IMG/VR virus record: IMGVR_UViG_3300033072_000473
Coordinates: 23,212-87,211 of that record
Source of the DNA: a virus
Lineage: Duplodnaviria; Caudoviricetes
Direction: 5' to 3' (one strand)
DNA length: 64,000 bases
Shown piece after piece: positions 17,539 to 36,908 of the stretch. Position numbers and translations under genes: made by a program. Position 1 is the first letter of the stretch; each line of letters starts with the position of its first letter. Below the pieces are notes generated by a model. It had not been told where the DNA came from and did no database searches. It saw only the letters and a list, made by a program, of their open reading frames with translations.

Positions 17539-18383
17539 AGTAGTGTCTTTAAGCGTCTTATATCTTCTTTTGAAAGTGATCCGGGGTCAGTATCTTCTGG
17601 CAATTCTATATTATCCACTATAAAGCCAGACTTTTCAAGATGAGGTTTTAATATCTCAACAGCTTTCTGACCTGGGGCATCTCCATCGTATAAAAATACG
17701 ATCTTATGAATACCTTGTAGCTTAAGACCTAGTATCTTTTCTTTATTTAAGCCTTTTACGGAACCTAGACCTTGAGTTCCCATTGTAGCAACAACATTTT
17801 TAATACCATTATCGTATAAGTTTAGCATATCAAATATGCCCTCTACTAGAATAACAGTACCATTATTATCTTCTATTTTGGCAGGGAATAGTGGAACCTC
17901 TACACCACTAGGAAAGTTTAAATATCTAGGTGTTCCTGCACTAAGTATATGCCTGCCTACAAAGCAAACAATTTTATCTTTTGAGTCCCTTAGTGGGAAT
18001 ACTACTCTATCCTCATAGTCTTTATGTGTAAAAGCATTAAAGTACTGTAGAGTAGCAGGACTAATTCCTCGAAATTCTCTAGTGTATGGTTGAGCACCTT
18101 TAGGCATCTCTAAACCATAACTATCTGCGTATATCTTTGCAATTTTATCACGTATTTTTGTTACGTATATACTTTGAGTATCAGCAATTAACCCAAAGTA
18201 TTTATAAATATTTAGTTTAAATCCACAAGAGAAGCAATGGCCGATACCCGTCAACTTATCAATCCTAAGTGACGGGTCTCGATCATTATGCTCTGGGTTT
18301 AAGCAGCGGATAAGAAAGTCTTTACCGCTAACTTTATATTCAAGTTTATTAGATTGTATTAACTCTAAAACGGTCATTACCAC
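17535..18383 (-). CDS. DNA primase (Zn finger + TOPRIM)
   Basis: RCLNPEH...CFSCG; LVEGIFD; YDGD. Confidence 0.9.
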   Translation of the reverse strand: MVMTVLELIQSNKLEYKVSGKDFLIRCLNPEHNDRDPSLRIDKLTGIGHCFSCGFKLNIYKYFGLIADTQSIYVTKIRDKIAKIYADSYGLEMPKGAQPYTREFRGISPATLQYFNAFTHKDYEDRVVFPLRDSKDKIVCFVGRHILSAGTPRYLNFPSGVEVPLFPAKIEDNNGTVILVEGIFDMLNLYDNGIKNVVATMGTQGLGSVKGLNKEKILGLKLQGIHKIVFLYDGDAPGQKAVEILKPHLEKSGFIVDNIELPEDTDPGSLSKEDIRRLKTLL

Positions 18384-29520: not shown

Positions 29521-29583
29521 CAGGATCGACCTTTTACAAGTCAGATTAGCAGTCTGGTGTATTTTATTTGCTGAAACGATCCT
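29521..29583 (-). ncRNA. CAGCAA-motif RNA, copy A (carries a Ser-GCU-type anticodon arm)
   Basis: AGGAUCG/CGAUCCU stem + UUUCAGCAA + CAGA-CUGCUAA-UCUG. Confidence 0.7.
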
Positions 29584-29593
29584 AAATAAGTAG

Positions 29594-29684
29594 TGGCGGG
29601 TCGAGAGAGAGTCGAACTCTCAAGGGCTTATTAGGCCTCGACTGTTTTCAAGACAGGTTCCATCGCCAATTGGATTGCCGACCC
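29594..29684 (-). tRNA. tRNA-Ser(UGA)
   Basis: Loop CT-TGA-AA; long variable arm; CCA. Confidence 0.92.
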
Positions 29685-29690
29685 GTTAAA

Positions 29691-29732
29691 TTACTTTTTC
29701 TTTTTTCCGCCTTTTTTAGGTTTACAAGCCAT
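29691..29732 (-). CDS. 13-aa basic micropeptide MACKPKKGGKKKK
   Basis: Strong SD (TAAGGAG) 6 nt upstream of ATG; fills the gap between tRNAs. Confidence 0.55.
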   Translation of the reverse strand: MACKPKKGGKKKK

Positions 29733-29791
29733 AATTTTCTCCTTATTGGTCTCCATGACCATAATTAAACCTACCTTAATAAGTTTAATTA

Positions 29792-29866
29792 TGGAGCGTC
29801 CACTCGGAATCGAACCGAGATCCTCAGCTTGGAAGGCTGTGATAATAACCATTATACGATGAACGC
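29792..29866 (-). tRNA. tRNA-Gly(UCC)
   Basis: CAGC-CTTCCAA-GCTG; CCA. Confidence 0.93.
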
Positions 29867-29867
29867 T

Positions 29868-29946
29868 TGGCTCCGCATCAGGGAATCGAACCCTGCTAGC
29901 CATTGATTAACAGTCAAGCCCATGCACCTTGCTCGGGTTCTGCGGA
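29868..29946 (-). tRNA. tRNA-Asn(GUU)
   Basis: TTGA-CTGTTAA-TCAA; CCA. Confidence 0.9.
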
Positions 29947-29952
29947 ATTGAT

Positions 29953-30332
29953 TTACACTAATACTTTGCAGCGTTTAATACAGTTTTCAATTCTAGACCA
30001 TTGAACTTTTGTTAGGGCTGGATCAGAGCTTACAAATCTTTGTAAGTCATCTAGCGTGTCCTGTATTAGCTGAATTGCTTGAGTTTGAGGAATTTCTTGA
30101 AATTTCTTTTTAGCATGTTCCCAAGCTTCCTGCTCTAGCTCTTCTGCCCACGCTTTTTGTCCTGATCCCATTGTAGTTCTCTAAATTTAGAAATAAACGA
30201 ATGATATGCTACGTAGGGTGTAGTATGCACTAAAAACCATGCATAAAGTACTTGCTGTACTCTATGTTTAAGTGTTAGTGGATAAACGGTACGTAGAAAC
30301 TCTTTTTTGCTTTGAAACATAGTATTCTCCAT
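29953..30332 (-). other. Two small hypothetical CDSs (29953..30171; 30135..~30320)
   Basis: ORF track; SD GGAGA precedes ATG 30320. Confidence 0.55.
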
Positions 30333-30416
30333 CAGGATACTGTGCCTACCATTAGGCTTATCTCGCTAAGACGAAACAATGGAATCGAACCATTAAAAAT
30401 TTTGCTGAAAGTATCC
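30333..30416 (-). ncRNA. CAGCAA-motif RNA, copy B (YrlA-like permuted tRNA mimic)
   Basis: GGAUAC/GUAUCC stem + UUUCAGCAA, then T-arm, loop-closed acceptor-like stem, D-arm. Confidence 0.75.
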
Positions 30417-30422
30417 AAAAAT

Positions 30423-30540
30423 TGGCCCCGAAACTAGGATTCGAACCTAGAACCTCTCCATTACAAGTGGAAGTTAAAGATGCGGTAAATATTCTTACAG
30501 AATACTATTTTTAGCGCTCTACCGATTGAGCTATTTCGGG
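30423..30540 (-). tRNA. tRNA-Thr(UGU)-like gene with 42-nt insertion (30471..30512) at the 5' side of the anticodon stem
   Basis: Perfect acceptor, D and T arms and CCA; removing 42 nt restores CTCCA-CTTGTAA-TGGAG. Confidence 0.8.
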
Positions 30541-30547
30541 ATTAAAC

Positions 30548-30625
30548 TGGTCTCAGTGGTAGGATTCGAACCTACGGTTTCCTGCTCCCAAAGCAGGCGA
30601 CTTAACCAAACTAGCCTACACTGAG
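30548..30625 (-). tRNA. tRNA-Pro(UGG)
   Basis: CCTGC-TTTGGGA-GCAGG; CCA. Confidence 0.93.
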
Positions 30626-30631
30626 TAATTC

Positions 30632-30706
30632 TGGAGTGAGTGGTAGGATTCAAACCTACATTGAGAAGATTTGCAGTCAACTGCCTAGTCTTTCGGCCAC
30701 ACCCAC
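30632..30706 (-). tRNA. tRNA-Cys(GCA), two U-U mismatches in anticodon stem
   Basis: Loop CT-GCA-AA; U73 discriminator; CCA. Confidence 0.8.
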
Positions 30707-30713
30707 AGTAACT

Positions 30714-30789
30714 TGGTCGTGAGAACAGGATTTGAACCTATAACCAACAGCGTATGAAGCTGCAGCTCTACCACTTGAGCTATCTCACG
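30714..30789 (-). tRNA. tRNA with CAU anticodon (Met elongator or Ile2)
   Basis: CAGC-TTCATAC-GCTG; paired 1-72; CCA. Confidence 0.85.
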
Positions 30790-30791
30790 TT

Positions 30792-30868
30792 TGGTACTCC
30801 CTCGCAGACTTGAACTGCGGACCTATCGCTTATCAAGCGATTGCTCTAACCAACTGAGCTAAGGAAGC
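30792..30868 (-). tRNA. tRNA-Ile(GAU)
   Basis: TCGC-TTGATAA-GCGA; CCA. Confidence 0.93.
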
Positions 30869-30875
30869 ATTAAAT

Positions 30876-30950
30876 TGGTGCTTAGTGTAGGGATCGAACC
30901 TACGGCCTCCGCCTTGTAAGGGCATTGCTCTACCGCTGAGCTAACCAAGC
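30876..30950 (-). tRNA. tRNA-Val(UAC)
   Basis: GCC-CTTACAA-GGC; CCA. Confidence 0.92.
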
Positions 30951-31277
30951 TTAAAAGTTTGCTTCTGTATAGAATTCACTCTGAGACGGGTCTTTATAGT
31001 ACTTCCAGCACTCATGTTGTTCTGTAAACTCTTCTACAGAGCAAATAGAGTAGAAAATACCTTCTTCTGTAAGACCATCCTCTTCTAGTTCATCCATATA
31101 TAATTCGTAGAAGTACTCATTGGCTGAATCTTCTACTAGTTCTTCTGCCTGAGCTATGGAGTTGGCTTTTACTATAAAATGTTGTCCATACCCAGCATAT
31201 TGAGCAGAGTCTGCGTAAATAATATATAGCATATGTACCTCTTTTGATTGATAAAGAACCTTCATAGTATCTAGCAA
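30951..31277 (-). CDS. Acidic hypothetical protein
   Basis: ORF track; stop codon abuts tRNA-Val. Confidence 0.6.
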   Translation of the reverse strand: MLDTMKVLYQSKEVHMLYIIYADSAQYAGYGQHFIVKANSIAQAEELVEDSANEYFYELYMDELEEDGLTEEGIFYSICSVEEFTEQHECWKYYKDPSQSEFYTEANF

Positions 31278-31346
31278 CTTTGAGGAGGATTGGCTAGCAA
31301 ATCAGTAAACTGACAGAAGGCTCTTTATCAATCATTGAAATAATAT

Positions 31347-31375
31347 TATATCAATGATTGAATAGGAAAACAAGT
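31347..31375 (-). promoter_or_regulatory. Sigma70 promoter; -10 flanked by inverted repeat TCAATCATTGA/TCAATGATTGA
   Basis: TTGTTT-17-TATAAT. Confidence 0.75.
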
Positions 31376-31390
31376 TTAAATTTCTTTTCT

Positions 31391-31419
31391 CCAAAAGAAA
31401 AGAGGGCAAATTGCCCTCT
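31391..31419 (-). terminator. Terminator after the DUF2828-type gene
   Basis: AGAGGGCA-ATT-TGCCCTCT followed by U tract. Confidence 0.8.
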
Positions 31420-31422
31420 ATC

Positions 31423-32838
31423 CTACAAACTATAACGATCGCTCATTACAGCTTTCAGCATAATTGCTTCAGGAGTAAATTCTTCTAAATCGCCACTAAG
31501 GACTGCCTTCATAATAGAAGGCGAGAATCCCGAAATAAGTGCCACGCCTTGTTGATTAAACTTAGCAGGAACATTATCATTGGCGTTTAGATTCCAAAAT
31601 ACAACTTTAGGCACTTGATAGCCAGCACGCTGATATTTGCTGGCAATCATTTGCATAGCATTATGGTCGTACTCAGCGCAATGATCGAACTGCATATCCG
31701 AAAGGATAAGCAAAATTTCAGGCATTTCGCTTTGTGGTACTTGATTTTTCACTGCTACACCCAGCACTTTATCAAAGGCCACATGTAGGTTAGTATTCAT
31801 ATTCCACAGAGATTTAACCATTTGTTGTGCACGCTGAACTACATCACCTTTGAGGCTAAGTAGTTCAGGAGTACCAGAGAAAGTAAGGAACAAATCCTTG
31901 AACTTACCCTGGTTCTTTTCACTAAGGTATAAGCCTAGTGAAACTGCAACATCCATGCAGGTAGTTGAACCTTTACTACCGGCTGCACAACTCATAGAGC
32001 CTGAAACATCTACCATCGGTAGAATACTTGCAGAACCTACGTAGTTTGGCAGCGCTTTCCACTGAGCTACAATCAAATCCTTTTGAGTTTGGTTATACTC
32101 AGCAGTATAATAAAGGTTAGCAACTCCCTTTAGCACGTCATAAGGGTAAACTGCACCAGCATTAACTTTTACAGTTTTATCGCCCTCTTTAAGTTTAGCT
32201 ACATATTCTGCGTACTTGGGAGTATTACGGAAAAATGCAGTCTTATAACGTGCATGTGCTAGACTAGGAACATGGGAGAAATTAATCTCTTCCCACTGCT
32301 TAGAGCACATTTGTTGTTCTACAACTTTAGTCAAATTGACTAGAGTTTTACGATAGAACTTTGGTGACCAACCAAGATACTGACGGAATTGTTCCGCCAC
32401 ACGGCCTTTACGTGGAGTCCACTTAGCCGCCAGACCGTTGCCTTCGGCAAGAGCTTGGCGCACTAGTTCGAACCCTACGTCTTGCATCTTAGGGGTTTGA
32501 AACGCAAACAAATCATCAAAGCGACCAAGGTCGGGAACCTTTTTAGCTAGACGAATTGCAGACTCCATATCATTCTTTTCCAGATATTGCAAAATATCAC
32601 GGAAAATCTGGCGTTCACCTACCCCTTGACGAATATCACGAACCCATTGTGCAATGCGTAGCGCAATATCCTTGTTCTCTACTAGAGCTGCGACAAAATC
32701 AGGAATAATATCCTTACCACGAGATGCACCAATCTTAAAGAAAAGATCAGTACAAGCATTTTCAGTTGCCTTAAATGCTTTCATCCCATTCTGGGTACGA
32801 ACTTCTTGATTTTGTACAGCTTGAGCAAAAGTAGTCAT
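31423..32838 (-). CDS. DUF2828-type protein: helical N-domain plus C-terminal vWA (Ro60/TROVE-like architecture)
   Basis: DLFFKIGASRG, WVRDIRQGVGER, AAKWTPR; MIDAS DVSGSM...TFS...TNL...LSDMQFD; VVFWNL. Confidence 0.8.
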   Translation of the reverse strand: MTTFAQAVQNQEVRTQNGMKAFKATENACTDLFFKIGASRGKDIIPDFVAALVENKDIALRIAQWVRDIRQGVGERQIFRDILQYLEKNDMESAIRLAKKVPDLGRFDDLFAFQTPKMQDVGFELVRQALAEGNGLAAKWTPRKGRVAEQFRQYLGWSPKFYRKTLVNLTKVVEQQMCSKQWEEINFSHVPSLAHARYKTAFFRNTPKYAEYVAKLKEGDKTVKVNAGAVYPYDVLKGVANLYYTAEYNQTQKDLIVAQWKALPNYVGSASILPMVDVSGSMSCAAGSKGSTTCMDVAVSLGLYLSEKNQGKFKDLFLTFSGTPELLSLKGDVVQRAQQMVKSLWNMNTNLHVAFDKVLGVAVKNQVPQSEMPEILLILSDMQFDHCAEYDHNAMQMIASKYQRAGYQVPKVVFWNLNANDNVPAKFNQQGVALISGFSPSIMKAVLSGDLEEFTPEAIMLKAVMSDRYSL

Positions 32839-32852
32839 TTTTTAAATATCTC

Positions 32853-32916
32853 CAGGTTAAGTTTTTGGTTTCTTGATAATTTGTAAGAAATTTCTGTTTA
32901 TTGCTGTAGTTAACCT
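32853..32916 (-). ncRNA. CAGCAA-motif RNA, copy D (abuts the SD of the DUF2828 gene)
   Basis: AGGUUAA/UUAACCU stem + CUACAGCAA. Confidence 0.7.
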
Positions 32917-32924
32917 AAAATCAA

Positions 32925-33053
32925 CGGGATGCTTTGTAACTGTTTATTAAACGAAAACCGTTACCCAAACGTTCGTCGACACCGATATCTATAAATAGAT
33001 ATCTGAAAGCCTCGACCATCTCCATAAGTGTATATGGTTGCTGAAGTCATCCC
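32925..33053 (-). ncRNA. CAGCAA-motif RNA, copy E
   Basis: GGGAUG/CAUCCC stem + CUUCAGCAA; internal hairpins GAUAUCUAU-UU-AUAGAUAUC and GUAAC...GUUAC. Confidence 0.7.
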
Positions 33054-33058
33054 AAAAC

Positions 33059-33132
33059 TGGTTGCGAGGCCCGGATTCGAACCGGGAATTTTGGCTTATG
33101 AGACCAAACGGATGCCTTTTCCACACCTCGCG
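33059..33132 (-). tRNA. tRNA-fMet(CAU), initiator-like
   Basis: C1:A72 mismatch; loop CTCATAA; CCA. Confidence 0.85.
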
Positions 33133-33614
33133 TCAAATTTTATATCGCTCTAGCAAATCTTTAGCGATTGCTAATAGCTGTTTGCGTCGTTCTAAAGAAG
33201 TTATAAGCAGCTTTTTAGCATTATCAGTGTAATGTTCAAGCTGTTCTTCACACTCAGAGATAGTACTCATTGAATCTTCGACTGCATTTTCAATGATTTG
33301 AATTAGCTCTGGTGTTACTGGAATGCTTTTCATTTGTAATCTCACTTAAAGATATATTATACAACTTTAAGTAAAAGGTTTCAAACTCAAATTTTTCAAA
33401 CTATATCCCAAACATCTGTGCGGTATAGTTTGGGAAATTCTTGTTTATGTTGCTCAGCAAAGTCTAGAATTTCTATTAGAATTTGAAATTCAAAACCTTG
33501 CCTGTTGGGTCTAGAAGTGGTTATTAACCCTTCTAAGTATTCTTTACACTCTTTTGTACCCCATAGTATACGTAAGTTTTTTACTATATGAGGATGCCTA
33601 GTTGCTAAACCCAT
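33133..33614 (-). other. Two small hypothetical CDSs (33133..33345, 33396..33614)
   Basis: ORF track; promoter TTGAAA-17-TATAAT at 33356..33384 lies between them. Confidence 0.55.
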
Positions 33615-36133: not shown

Positions 36134-36850
36134 TTATGTTCCATAATGCTTTAAGTTATACTCTTCTAGATCTATTCTGTTTCCTTTTGCAATATTCTCT
36201 TCTGGAGTTAAATATTGCAGATTGGCAACAACGTGTAGCCCAGATACTAGCTCACCTTTTAATGGTAATATATGATCTACATGTAACCCTTTAGGGCAGT
36301 TCCTATAAAATTCTTGTAAACCTTTTATATCTTCCCAATTAACGCACCGTAAAGAACGTTCACCTTTATAGTGCTGATTTCGCTCTAGAATTTTAGTATA
36401 ATTCTTTTCATAAGACCGTTTATGTGCTTCTTTAGTACTGTCTTTTGAATACGCAATTTTATTTAATTCTTTTCTACAACTTTTACAATAATGGTGTCTA
36501 CCACAAGTTGCACTATTGTCTATATCAAATTCTTTGAAGGTCTTTATCTCTCTACAGGAGATACAAAGTTTATACTCAATAAATATTAGTAATTTCCACT
36601 TCCAAGTTTCGTTGCCGCCGTTTAGCTTTCCAAATTTTGGAACAAAGTATTCATCTAATACTCTATTAATGGTTTGCGCACCTCTATTCAATAGTTTAGC
36701 AGCTTTTGGTATTGTACCTTGCTCAAGTATGGCTAAAATCATATCACCGGCCAATACTTCGGCAGTATTGGATCTAGCCTTTCTTAGCACTGTATTATAC
36801 TCTAAATTAAGTTTATTAAGTATTAAAGTTGTTAATTCTTGATTTGTCAT
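36134..36850 (-). CDS. Free-standing HNH endonuclease
   Basis: CISC...CKSC Zn motif; CPKGLHVDHILPLKGELVSGLHVVANLQYL; SD GGAGG before ATG 36850. Confidence 0.88.
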   Translation of the reverse strand: MTNQELTTLILNKLNLEYNTVLRKARSNTAEVLAGDMILAILEQGTIPKAAKLLNRGAQTINRVLDEYFVPKFGKLNGGNETWKWKLLIFIEYKLCISCREIKTFKEFDIDNSATCGRHHYCKSCRKELNKIAYSKDSTKEAHKRSYEKNYTKILERNQHYKGERSLRCVNWEDIKGLQEFYRNCPKGLHVDHILPLKGELVSGLHVVANLQYLTPEENIAKGNRIDLEEYNLKHYGT

Positions 36851-36908
36851 TTGTGTCCTCCATTTAAATATTATAAATTTAGAAGACATAAAAGTCAAAT
36901 TTAATTTT

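What the first reader, a model, noticed from the sequence alone, without database searches (positions are those of the whole stretch)
29521..33053. Candidate new RNP system: Ro60/TROVE-like vWA protein with a family of CAGCAA-motif tRNA-mimic RNAs
Seen: five - strand copies of a 6-7 bp helix followed by a near-invariant single-stranded motif. A 29521-29583 AGGAUCG-UUUCAGCAA...CGAUCCUG; B 30333-30416 GGAUAC-UUUCAGCAA...GUAUCCUG; D 32853-32916 AGGUUAA-CUACAGCAA...UUAACCUG; E 32925-33053 GGGAUGA-CUUCAGCAA...GCAUCCCG; C is inside-out within tRNA-Thr (GUAUUCU-GUA-AGAAUAU-UUACCGCA). The stems covary while the motif and 3' (U/C)G stay fixed. A, B, D and E each follow a U-rich spacer after a tRNA CCA or another copy. 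All lie within about 2 kb of the 471-aa helical plus vWA (DVSGSM) gene, and two are directly upstream of it. Established: bacterial Ro60 (Rsr; TROVE+vWA) binds a conserved helix of Y RNAs; YrlA RNAs mimic tRNA; the Salmonella rsr-yrl-rtcBA operon responds to tRNA cleavage. Inference: the DUF2828-type protein binds this helix-motif as a handle and displays interchangeable tRNA modules, as decoys for anticodon nucleases or as adaptors for RNA repair or decay. I know of no description of this motif, and no RNA ligase is visible in the window.
Basis: partly seen in the sequence, partly recalled or inferred. Interest (0 to 1): 0.92.

Follow-up and report, generated by a model that had tools for sequence, protein, structure and literature searches.

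The report
Phage Ro60-like protein with partner RNAs
A freshwater or wastewater phage encodes a ring-shaped relative of the RNA-binding protein Ro60, plus five small RNAs in its tRNA operons that share one "handle" and carry tRNA parts; the same pairing recurs across very distant phages and microbes, and I found no published description of it.

Summary
A covariance model built only from other phages' sequences ranks D, A, B and E as the four best matches in the whole 64-kb window. C is also real: it is a circularly permuted copy of the handle, inserted into tRNA-Thr.

- **Protein:** the 471-aa DUF2828/DUF7788 protein is predicted to have the Ro60 fold (Z 21.6 to Xenopus Ro60) with an intact MIDAS site.
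- **Co-occurrence:** handle RNAs sit beside DUF2828 genes, always on the gene's strand. This holds in 5 of 5 complete phage genomes tested, 69 of 80 viral contigs and 43 of 80 bacterial or archaeal contigs. T4, T5 and the TROVE-type Ro60 phage Bxz1 have none.
- **Cargo:** the cargoes mimic tRNA parts. B is a permuted T-arm/D-arm body like YrlA. A, and 43% of the short relatives, carry an anticodon-loop look-alike.
- **Known relatives:** the handle differs from the known Y-RNA motif (CGAA). It matches the design of Dictyostelium Class I RNAs (Rfam RF01414) below threshold.

Best reading: an apparently undescribed Ro60/Y-RNA-like particle. Binding and function are untested. This scan has reported the same pairing before on many other genomes.

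The parts
31423..32838 (-). Gene for a 471-aa Ro60-fold protein: N-terminal helical-repeat ring (Pfam DUF2828) plus C-terminal vWA domain (DUF7788) with MIDAS residues D277, S279, S281, T349, D381
   Evidence: ORF. Pfam PF11443 at 83.8 bits and PF25043 at 159.9 bits; PHROG 850 'RNA-binding protein' at E 4.6e-139. AF2 model pLDDT 88.5, pTM 0.88. Ro60 structures are the top fold matches, Z 21.6. MIDAS residues are invariant in 57 homologues.
32925..33053 (-). RNA E (129 nt): handle GGGAUG/CAUCCC + CUUCAGCAA + 3' G, with a large structured cargo. Follows tRNA-Met CCA + GUUUU.
   Evidence: R2 20.3 bits, E 0.035. Fold z-score -4.95. A longer RNA with the same stem sequence sits before the gene in L010 and L009.
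32853..32916 (-). RNA D (64 nt): handle AGGUUAA/UUAACCU + CUACAGCAA + 3' G. Its last pair lies 15 nt before the AUG and it abuts the GGAG Shine-Dalgarno sequence of the gene. Candidate partner RNA and translational operator.
   Evidence: R2 44.5 bits, E 1.3e-7. RF01414 21 bits over its full length. In relatives the gene-proximal handle ends 11-24 nt before the AUG in 48 of 53 cases.
30333..30416 (-). RNA B (84 nt): handle GGAUAC/GUAUCC + UUUCAGCAA. Cargo runs T-arm (AUGGUUCGAUUCCAU), closed acceptor-like hairpin, D-arm (GCCUAAUGGUAGGC): a circularly permuted tRNA body as in YrlA.
   Evidence: z -3.12. R2 25.6 bits, E 0.0022. After re-permutation ARAGORN calls a tRNA at the 90% threshold, against 0 of 300 shuffles and no call at the default threshold.
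30426..30540 (-). Element C: tRNA-Thr(UGU) carrying a 42-nt insert between the D arm and the anticodon arm. The insert holds a circularly permuted handle at 30480-30505 (S3 GUAUUCU, loop GUA, S5 AGAAUAU, motif UUACCGCAU).
   Evidence: Rfam tRNA 49 bits over 115 nt. Sequence. Permuted-handle scan finds it here and in a tRNA of relative L011.
29521..29583 (-). RNA A (63 nt): handle AGGAUCG/CGAUCCU + UUUCAGCAA + 3' GUU. Cargo has an anticodon-arm look-alike, CAGA-CUGCUAA-UCUG ('GCU'). Follows tRNA-Ser(UGA) and lies just before a phosphoesterase gene.
   Evidence: R2 38.7 bits, E 2.6e-6. Anticodon-loop-like hairpins occur in 56 of 129 short relatives against 2.9 expected.
33356..33384 (-). Promoter-like site (TTGAAA-17-TATAAT) at the head of the unit small ORF, tRNA-Met, E, D, DUF2828 gene
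   Evidence: Consensus scan, 11 of 12 matches. A consensus match only.
31401..31419 (-). Intrinsic-terminator-like hairpin plus U run, directly after the gene's stop codon; ends the E-D-gene unit
33059..33132 (-). tRNA-Met(CAU), whose CCA end lies 5 nt before RNA E
29598..29684 (-). Type-II tRNA with anticodon UGA (Ser), whose CCA end (to about 29594) lies 10 nt before RNA A
   Evidence: Rfam tRNA-Sec model 41.7 bits. Read by eye. Missed by ARAGORN.

Best explanation
The five elements are genes for small noncoding RNAs that partner the neighbouring DUF2828/DUF7788 protein. Together they form a Ro60/Y-RNA-like particle.

**The handle.** Each RNA has a constant handle: a 6-7-bp helix joining its 5' and 3' ends, with a near-terminal G:C pair; the single-stranded motif YWNCAGCAA right after the 5' strand; and a 3' G(U) tail. 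By analogy with Y RNAs, this handle is where the ring-shaped protein binds (inferred).

**The cargo.** The handle carries a variable cargo that often copies part of a tRNA: an anticodon arm (A), a T/D-arm elbow with a closed acceptor stem (B), or a whole tRNA with the handle as an extra arm (C).

**Production (inferred).** The RNAs are transcribed within two tRNA operons and are cut out at U-rich spacers by host tRNA-processing nucleases.

**Possible operator (inferred, about 40%).** The gene-proximal copy D abuts the Shine-Dalgarno sequence. It probably also lets the protein repress its own translation.

**Role (inferred, not shown).** The particle acts in the tRNA-centred conflict of infection. 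It either presents tRNA look-alikes to host tRNA-targeting or tRNA-handling enzymes as decoys, or tethers them to a host exonuclease such as PNPase, as bacterial and Thermus-phage Ro60-Y RNA particles do.
For: **Protein.** The AF2 model is confident (pLDDT 88.5, pTM 0.88). The ten best PDB entries are all Ro60: Xenopus 2i91/1yvr/1yvp at Z 21.5-21.6, rmsd 3.7-3.9 A over 395-409 residues; also human, D. radiodurans and phage phiLo. vWA-only matches follow at Z about 10 (Foldseek E 1.5e-8). MIDAS residues are invariant.

**RNAs in this window.** Model R2 contains no window sequence, and its four best hits in the window are D, A, B and E.

**Co-occurrence.**
- In five complete genomes (Mycobacterium phage Crossroads, Escherichia phage REP8, Listeria LP-039, Staphylococcus CF9, Campylobacter F207), every R1 hit with E<0.01 lies within about 1 kb of the DUF2828 gene.
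- T4 and Bxz1 (TROVE Ro60, no DUF2828) give no R1 hit at E<=1, and T5 only two at E 0.63.
- In 80 IMG/VR loci, 158 of 158 hits are on the gene's strand. Of the top 150, 145 are upstream and 4 downstream; 69 of 80 loci have a hit; 50 of 76 have one within 100 nt of the AUG.
- In 80 bacterial or archaeal contigs at 33-63% protein identity, 62 of 62 hits are on the gene's strand, in 43 loci.

**Stem.** 99.4% of cells are paired, with 235 double changes.

**Cargo.** B is a permuted tRNA body. 56 of 129 short relatives carry an anticodon-loop-like hairpin, against 2.9 +/- 1.8 in shuffles.

**Separate transcription.** In L010 two of the RNAs have their own TTGACT-17-TATAAT promoters.

**Operator hint.** The gene-proximal handle ends 11-24 nt before the AUG in 48 of 53 relatives. 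In Vibrio phage 6E35-1b the handle encloses the SD and the AUG.

**Precedent.** Ro60 binds the terminal helix and motif of Y RNAs, and YrlA mimics tRNA (PMC4201824). phiLo Ro60 binds two upstream Y-like RNAs and attenuates PNPase (PMC12135203).
Against: - No binding, expression-end or phenotype data exist here. The metatranscriptome data were contigs only and show neither strand nor ends.
- The sequence link to Ro60 is faint: profile E 0.03-0.07, and only over the start of the vWA domain. No Pfam TROVE match.
- The handle lacks the CGAA/GNCGAA motif of known bacterial and phage Y RNAs, and Rfam YrlA does not score these RNAs.
- The stem statistics come from hits selected by, and aligned to, a model that rewards pairing.
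- Many contigs in the surveys are related, so counts are not independent events.
- D and E show no tRNA mimicry.
- Dictyostelium Class I RNAs, the closest look-alikes, are known to bind an RRM protein (Rnp1A), not a Ro-like protein (PMC7919456).
- No RNA ligase or other repair enzyme was found in the record.
Confidence: 0.78

Rival explanations
1. The elements are cis-acting processing or stability signals of the polycistronic tRNA-mRNA transcripts. Terminal hairpins would mark RNase E or RNase P cuts, or protect the downstream mRNA's 5' end. They would have no dedicated protein partner, and the neighbouring DUF2828 gene would be a passenger of tRNA clusters.
For: In the window, all copies lie at tRNA/mRNA junctions after U-rich spacers, and A, B and D lie directly before ORFs. 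DUF2828 genes often sit in tRNA clusters.
Against: T4 gives no hit at E<=1 and T5 only two at E 0.63, although both have tRNA clusters. The RNAs flank the gene where no tRNA genes are annotated within about 3 kb (Crossroads) or only one is nearby (Staphylococcus CF9), and in bacterial contigs. Some have their own promoters. A fixed single-stranded 9-mer next to a covarying helix points to a specific binder, not a generic hairpin.
Confidence: 0.07
2. The handles are only operators. The DUF2828 protein binds them to control its own translation and that of neighbouring genes. The RNAs have no function as free particles or as tRNA mimics.
For: The gene-proximal handle abuts the Shine-Dalgarno sequence at a fixed 11-24 nt from the AUG in 48 of 53 relatives. 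It encloses the SD and AUG in a Vibrio phage. A, B and D in the window each precede an ORF.
Against: Copies also lie downstream of the gene, or between tRNAs with no ORF behind them (Crossroads, CF9, REP8). E is followed by D, not by an ORF. Cargoes are strongly enriched for anticodon-loop and tRNA-body mimics, which an operator does not need. One handle is built into a tRNA.
Confidence: 0.1
3. The RNAs are real small RNAs whose partner is some other factor, for example a host protein, as the RRM protein Rnp1A is for Dictyostelium Class I RNAs. Linkage to DUF2828 would reflect a shared pathway rather than direct binding.
For: The only experimentally known binder of the look-alike Class I RNAs is an RRM protein (PMC7919456). 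No binding data exist for DUF2828.
Against: Linkage is tight, strand-specific and maintained from actinophages to archaeal contigs. The protein has the fold of a known RNA-handle binder. Both points favour direct partnership.
Confidence: 0.05

Closest known systems
Bacterial and phage Ro60 (Rsr, TROVE + vWA) with Y RNAs YrlA/YrlB (Rfam RF02553; Chen et al. 2014, PMC4201824)
   Same: Ring + vWA protein fold. RNA genes lie within a few kb on the same strand as the protein gene. The terminal helix is formed by the 5' and 3' ends, with a conserved motif near the 5' end. RNA B has T-arm, acceptor-like hairpin and D-arm in the YrlA order.
   Different: The protein belongs to other Pfam families (DUF2828/DUF7788, no TROVE hit). 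The motif is CAGCAA, not GNCGAA. The YrlA model does not score these RNAs. Most members are about 60 nt with an anticodon-arm-like or unrelated cargo. There are several copies per genome, embedded in tRNA operons.
Thermus phage phiLo Ro60 with Yrl1/Yrl2 (PMC12135203; PDB 9KOP, 9L5Y)
   Same: A phage-encoded Ro60-fold protein with small RNAs encoded just upstream. 9KOP and 9L5Y are among the top fold matches (Z 17.2 and 15.9). It offers a tested precedent: RNA binding and attenuation of host PNPase.
   Different: phiLo Ro60 is deposited as a TROVE-domain protein and its RNAs were picked by their CGAA motif. There is no significant sequence match to the window protein beyond E 0.03 over the start of the vWA domain.
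Dictyostelium Class I RNAs (Rfam RF01414; Kjellin et al. 2021, PMC7919456)
   Same: Same design: invariant 5' G, 6-bp covarying terminal stem, motif CCUUACAGCAA directly after the 5' strand, variable middle, 3' CUG(U), about 60 nt. The Rfam model, built from amoeba RNAs only, aligns D over its full length (21 bits). The best hit in four of five phage genomes, and the eight best overall, are the RNAs beside DUF2828 genes.
   Different: All phage scores are below the gathering score (13-26 against 41.5 bits). Class I RNAs are eukaryotic, have a DUSE promoter, and are reported as unique to Dictyostelia. Their shown binder is the RRM protein Rnp1A. I could not test whether dictyostelids encode a DUF2828 protein.

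Membership tests
DUF2828 / DUF7788 protein family (Pfam PF11443 + PF25043; PHROG 850) | Matches to both Pfam models above their curated cut-offs | tested here: met
   PF25043 at 159.9 bits (cut-off 27.1) and PF11443 at 83.8 bits (cut-off 29); PHROG 850 at E 4.6e-139.
Ro60 / TROVE (Pfam PF05731) | Closed ring of helical repeats followed by a vWA domain | tested here: met
   AF2 model (pLDDT 88.5). The ten best PDB entries are all Ro60, Z 13.2-21.6, about 400 aligned residues spanning model residues 9-453. This is a predicted structure, not a solved one.
Ro60 / TROVE (Pfam PF05731) | Sequence match to the TROVE profile | tested here: not met
   No TROVE hit at E<=0.1 for the window protein. PF05731 finds nothing in three DUF2828 phages but does find Bxz1 Ro60. 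The family profile reaches Ro60 chains only at E 0.03-0.07, over the start of the vWA domain.
Ro60 / TROVE (Pfam PF05731) | MIDAS metal site in the vWA domain (DxSxS...T...D) | tested here: met
   D277, S279, S281, T349 and D381 are invariant in 57 homologues.
Ro60 / TROVE (Pfam PF05731) | Binds Y RNA on the ring's outer surface and RNA 3' ends in the hole | not testable with these tools
   Needs EMSA, CLIP or a structure.
Y RNA, YrlA type (Rfam RF02553) | 5' and 3' ends pair in a terminal helix; gene within about 4 kb of the Ro60 gene on the same strand | tested here: met
   All five elements lie within 1.9 kb of the gene on its strand.
Y RNA, YrlA type (Rfam RF02553) | Conserved GNCGAA(N0-1)G / CGAA motif near the 5' end | tested here: not met
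   The motif here is YWNCAGCAA. For the CGAA motif see PMC4201824 and PMC12135203.
Y RNA, YrlA type (Rfam RF02553) | tRNA-like module with T and D arms | tested here: inconclusive
   Present in B and, as a whole tRNA, in C. A has only an anticodon-arm look-alike. D and E have none.
Y RNA, YrlA type (Rfam RF02553) | Score at or above Rfam's gathering score (69 bits) | tested here: not met
   No YrlA hit on A, B, D or E even at E<=10. The Crossroads T/D-arm member scores 21.6 bits.
Dictyostelium Class I RNA (Rfam RF01414) | 5' G, about 6-bp terminal stem, conserved motif (..UUACAGCAA) next to the 5' strand, 3' CUG(U) | tested here: met
   Consensus alignment of D to the Rfam model. Family profile: G3, C12, G14, C15, A16, C186 and G188 are invariant in 150 relatives. 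Features as in PMC7919456.
Dictyostelium Class I RNA (Rfam RF01414) | Score at or above the gathering score (41.5 bits) | tested here: not met
   D scores 21 bits. Phage relatives score 13-26 bits.
Dictyostelium Class I RNA (Rfam RF01414) | Dictyostelid origin with a DUSE promoter about 60 nt upstream | tested here: not met
   This is a phage of a prokaryote. Here the RNAs lie within tRNA operons, and in L010 they are driven by sigma-70-type promoters.

The most novel reading that the evidence does not exclude
The stem + ACAGCAA handle is the recognition tag of one ancient ribonucleoprotein found across domains of life. DUF2828 Ro60-fold proteins of phages, bacteria and archaea would bind it. 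The orphan Class I RNAs of Dictyostelium, held to be unique to social amoebae and linked to their multicellular development, would be the eukaryotic members of the same RNA family, partnered by a DUF2828-type protein. In phages, the particle would display interchangeable tRNA parts as bait for host anticodon nucleases.
Probability: 0.3. Interest if true: 0.93.

Novelty: new variant of a known kind. Interest (0 to 1): 0.8.

Why it matters
DUF2828/DUF7788 is a very large family of unknown function: 6,175 clusters at 50% identity match at E<=0.001, and 711 sequenced phages carry it, among them Felix O1-type (genus Felixounavirus), Listeria Pecentumvirus and Campylobacter Fletchervirus phages.

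- Giving the family an RNA partner turns it into a testable second branch of the Ro60/Y-RNA system. That system is central to RNA quality control and autoimmunity research.
- The modular "handle plus tRNA part" design suggests a phage strategy in the contest over tRNAs with host anticodon nucleases.
- It would annotate many small RNA genes that go unannotated inside phage tRNA clusters.
- The match to Dictyostelium Class I RNAs offers a concrete hypothesis for an RNA class that has lacked a mechanism since 2004.

Tried and rejected
- **Rfam:** no family reaches its gathering score on any of the five elements. At E<=10 the only hit on them is RF01414, on D.
- **Close relatives:** megablast against named phages found none.
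- **Sequence search against PDB:** the single sequence finds nothing relevant.
- **Metatranscriptome runs from four studies:** contigs of 90-99% relatives cover the gene together with D and E. Contigs show neither strand, ends nor level, so there is no verdict on expression.
- **RNA ligases:** neither RtcB nor Rnl2-type ligases are found in the 87-kb record, which is 83% complete, so absence from the phage is not proven.
- **ARAGORN on re-permuted B:** no call at the default threshold; called only at the 90% threshold.
- **First descriptor scan:** too loose to be useful and missed D through a greedy-extension artefact. It was replaced and the covariance models.
- **Dictyostelium DUF2828 gene:** I could not test whether one exists. 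The tools hold no eukaryotic genomes, the Atlas search returned only viral and bacterial clusters, and Avesson 2011 and Aspegren 2004 are not held.
- **Literature:** searches for DUF2828, UCP015417, 'Ro-like RNA binding' and TROVE / Y RNA / phage found no description of these RNAs.

Full report
**What is there.** The window is part of an 87-kb IMG/VR virus record. Its - strand carries 23 of the window's 25 predicted tRNA genes and a permuted tmRNA. Within this region lies a 471-aa gene (31423-32838) that matches Pfam DUF2828 and DUF7788 and PHROG 850 'RNA-binding protein'.

Each has a 6-7-bp helix joining the two ends, YUNCAGCAA right after the 5' strand, and a G after the 3' strand. Each follows a U-rich spacer after a tRNA CCA end or after another copy.

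A promoter-like site at 33384-33356 and a terminator at 31419-31401 bracket one unit: small ORF, tRNA-Met, E, D, gene. A and B lie in the next unit downstream, among ten tRNA genes and small ORFs (consensus matches only).

**Is it more than chance?** The 9-mer alone is common, but the full design is not. A constrained descriptor finds only these four plus one stray on the - strand.

The cleanest test uses model R2, built solely from 150 RNAs found in other phages. The fifth hit has no motif.

**Element C.** tRNA-Thr(UGU) at 30426-30540 has a 42-nt insert between the D arm and the anticodon arm. The insert reads S3(GUAUUCU)-GUA-S5(AGAAUAU)-UUACCGCAU. This is the handle with its termini fused (3' tail GU joined to the 5' A) and its interior opened. 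It keeps the family's invariant G:C pair.

A tRNA of relative L011 (53% protein identity) has the same kind of insert at the same site.

Read this way, B and C share one architecture: D arm, S3, (ends or loop), S5, motif, then the T arm. C keeps the anticodon arm and true acceptor ends.

**The protein.** An AF2 model from 57 homologues is confident (pLDDT 88.5, pTM 0.88).
- Foldseek's best matches are all Ro60 chains, E 1.5e-8 to 3.8e-7, before vWA-only matches begin at E about 2e-3.
- VIA-align gives Z 21.6 and rmsd 3.7 A over 403 residues to Xenopus Ro60. All ten best entries are Ro60 (human, D. radiodurans, Thermus phage phiLo). vWA-only matches follow at Z about 10.
- The MIDAS residues are invariant.
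- By sequence the link is faint: profile E 0.03-0.07 and no TROVE hit.

The protein is therefore Ro60-like by predicted fold, not a member of the Pfam TROVE family. Some phage records already annotate homologues as 'Ro-like RNA binding protein'.

**Co-occurrence.** Reading the relatives by eye showed the same design before the gene in L010 and L011. Three copies follow the homologue in Mycobacterium phage Crossroads, one of them with T and D arms.

Model R1 (eight short members from five phages) then found unseen members beside the gene in Staphylococcus CF9, Campylobacter F207 and Bacillus PK-3.

- **Complete genomes.** In five of them, every hit with E<0.01 lies within about 1 kb of the gene.
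- **Controls.** T4 (tRNA cluster, no DUF2828) and Bxz1 (classical TROVE Ro60) have no hit at E<=1. T5 (many tRNA genes, no DUF2828) has only two noise-level hits at E 0.63.
- **80 IMG/VR loci.** 158 of 158 hits are on the gene's strand. Of the top 150, 145 are upstream and 4 downstream, although the loci hold more downstream than upstream DNA. 69 of 80 loci are hit.
- **80 bacterial or archaeal contigs (33-63% identity).** 62 of 62 hits are on the gene's strand, in 43 loci, mostly within 400 nt upstream. They include cultured Dysosmobacter and Hominicoprocola and a Woesearchaeota bin.

The stem covaries: 99.4% of cells are paired, with 235 double changes. This alignment is fitted to the model and the contigs are partly related, so the strand and position statistics are the more independent evidence.

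**Cargo.** B's interior runs T arm, closed acceptor-like hairpin, D arm. Cut in that hairpin's loop and closed at the handle, it is called a tRNA by ARAGORN at the 90% threshold. None of 300 shuffles is called, and it is not called at the default threshold. In that reading the handle helix takes the place of the anticodon stem, as in YrlA.

A holds CAGA-CUGCUAA-UCUG, a 7-nt loop with the U33 and R37 pattern. Among 129 distinct short relatives, 56 have such an anticodon-arm look-alike, against 2.9 +/- 1.8 in shuffles. The most frequent 'anticodons' are UGU, UUU, UCU and UGA.

D and E show no tRNA feature. E is strongly structured (z -4.95).

**A second role for the gene-proximal copy.** D's last pair lies 15 nt before the AUG, and its 3' G begins the GGAG Shine-Dalgarno sequence. 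In relatives the distance is 11-24 nt in 48 of 53 cases. In Vibrio phage 6E35-1b the handle encloses both the SD and the AUG. This fits autogenous translational control by the protein. It is an inference.

**Comparison with the known.** Known bacterial and phage Y RNAs (YrlA/YrlB, phiLo Yrl1/2) carry a GNCGAA/CGAA motif and accompany TROVE-type Ro60 (PMC4201824, PMC12135203). The RNAs here do not score with Rfam YrlA.

Their handle instead matches the design of Dictyostelium Class I RNAs: 5' G, 6-bp covarying stem, CCUUACAGCAA, 3' CUGU, about 60 nt (PMC7919456). I reached this through the weak RF01414 hit on D. That amoeba-only model gives the best hit in four of five complete phage genomes to an RNA beside the DUF2828 gene, and its eight best hits overall are such RNAs, all below threshold.

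[quoted passage not shown] I could not test whether dictyostelids have a DUF2828 protein.

**Literature and earlier notes.** My searches found no paper describing these RNAs or linking DUF2828 to an RNA.

This scan's notebook shows the same pairing reported many times on other genomes. I used those notes for one paper lead (PMC12135203) and otherwise re-derived the claims here. One note records that a later check gave its bold reading low odds, which tempers my estimate for the cross-domain reading.

**Verdict.** The partnership reading is well supported by fold, synteny, strand bias and controls, but no binding has been measured. The function (decoy, adaptor to an exonuclease, or tRNA surveillance) is inference. 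It is best filed as a new variant of the Ro60/Y-RNA kind.

Noticed in passing
window:28971-29507 (-); L012:1-51; L016:3654-4832; L014:12852-14063 and 17614-18231: A calcineurin-type metallophosphoesterase gene lies right after RNA A. Phosphoesterase genes also sit near the DUF2828 gene in Crossroads, Staphylococcus CF9 and Listeria LP-039, and LP-039 also has an RtcB-type RNA ligase 1.3 kb downstream. This may be an RNA end-healing partner.
   Followed up: partly
window:35105-35502 (-): Phage-encoded permuted (two-piece) tmRNA with tag ANDNTFALAA. It matches the betaproteobacterial tmRNA and permuted tmRNA models.
   Followed up: no
window:35872-36099 (-) and 36134-36898 (-): A group I intron (59.6 bits) lies next to an ORF with endonuclease VII/HNH matches. 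The interrupted gene was not identified.
   Followed up: no
window:30417 (5' edge of RNA B): Metatranscriptome contigs of close relatives from three studies carry 92 extra letters exactly between the tRNA-Thr end and the first base of B. This would fit one more module inserted at a module boundary.
   Followed up: no
L015:9964-10010 (Vibrio phage 6E35-1b): A 39-nt handle (GACAUU-AUACAGCAA...AAUGUC-AG) behind its own promoter encloses the Shine-Dalgarno sequence and start codon of the DUF2828 gene.
   Followed up: partly
window:38784-38875 (-): A 92-nt tRNA called Ile(UAU) with an unusually long stretch between the anticodon arm and the T arm. It contains no handle motif.
   Followed up: no
window:37956-37981 (+): A short hairpin, UAGGUUGG-UUAC..CCAACCUG, resembles the handle helix and its flanks but lacks the CAGCAA motif (R2 18.4 bits).
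   Followed up: no
window:29598-29684 (-): A type-II tRNA with anticodon UGA (Ser) is missed by ARAGORN and scores only as tRNA-Sec-like (41.7 bits). Its D arm looks atypical.
   Followed up: no
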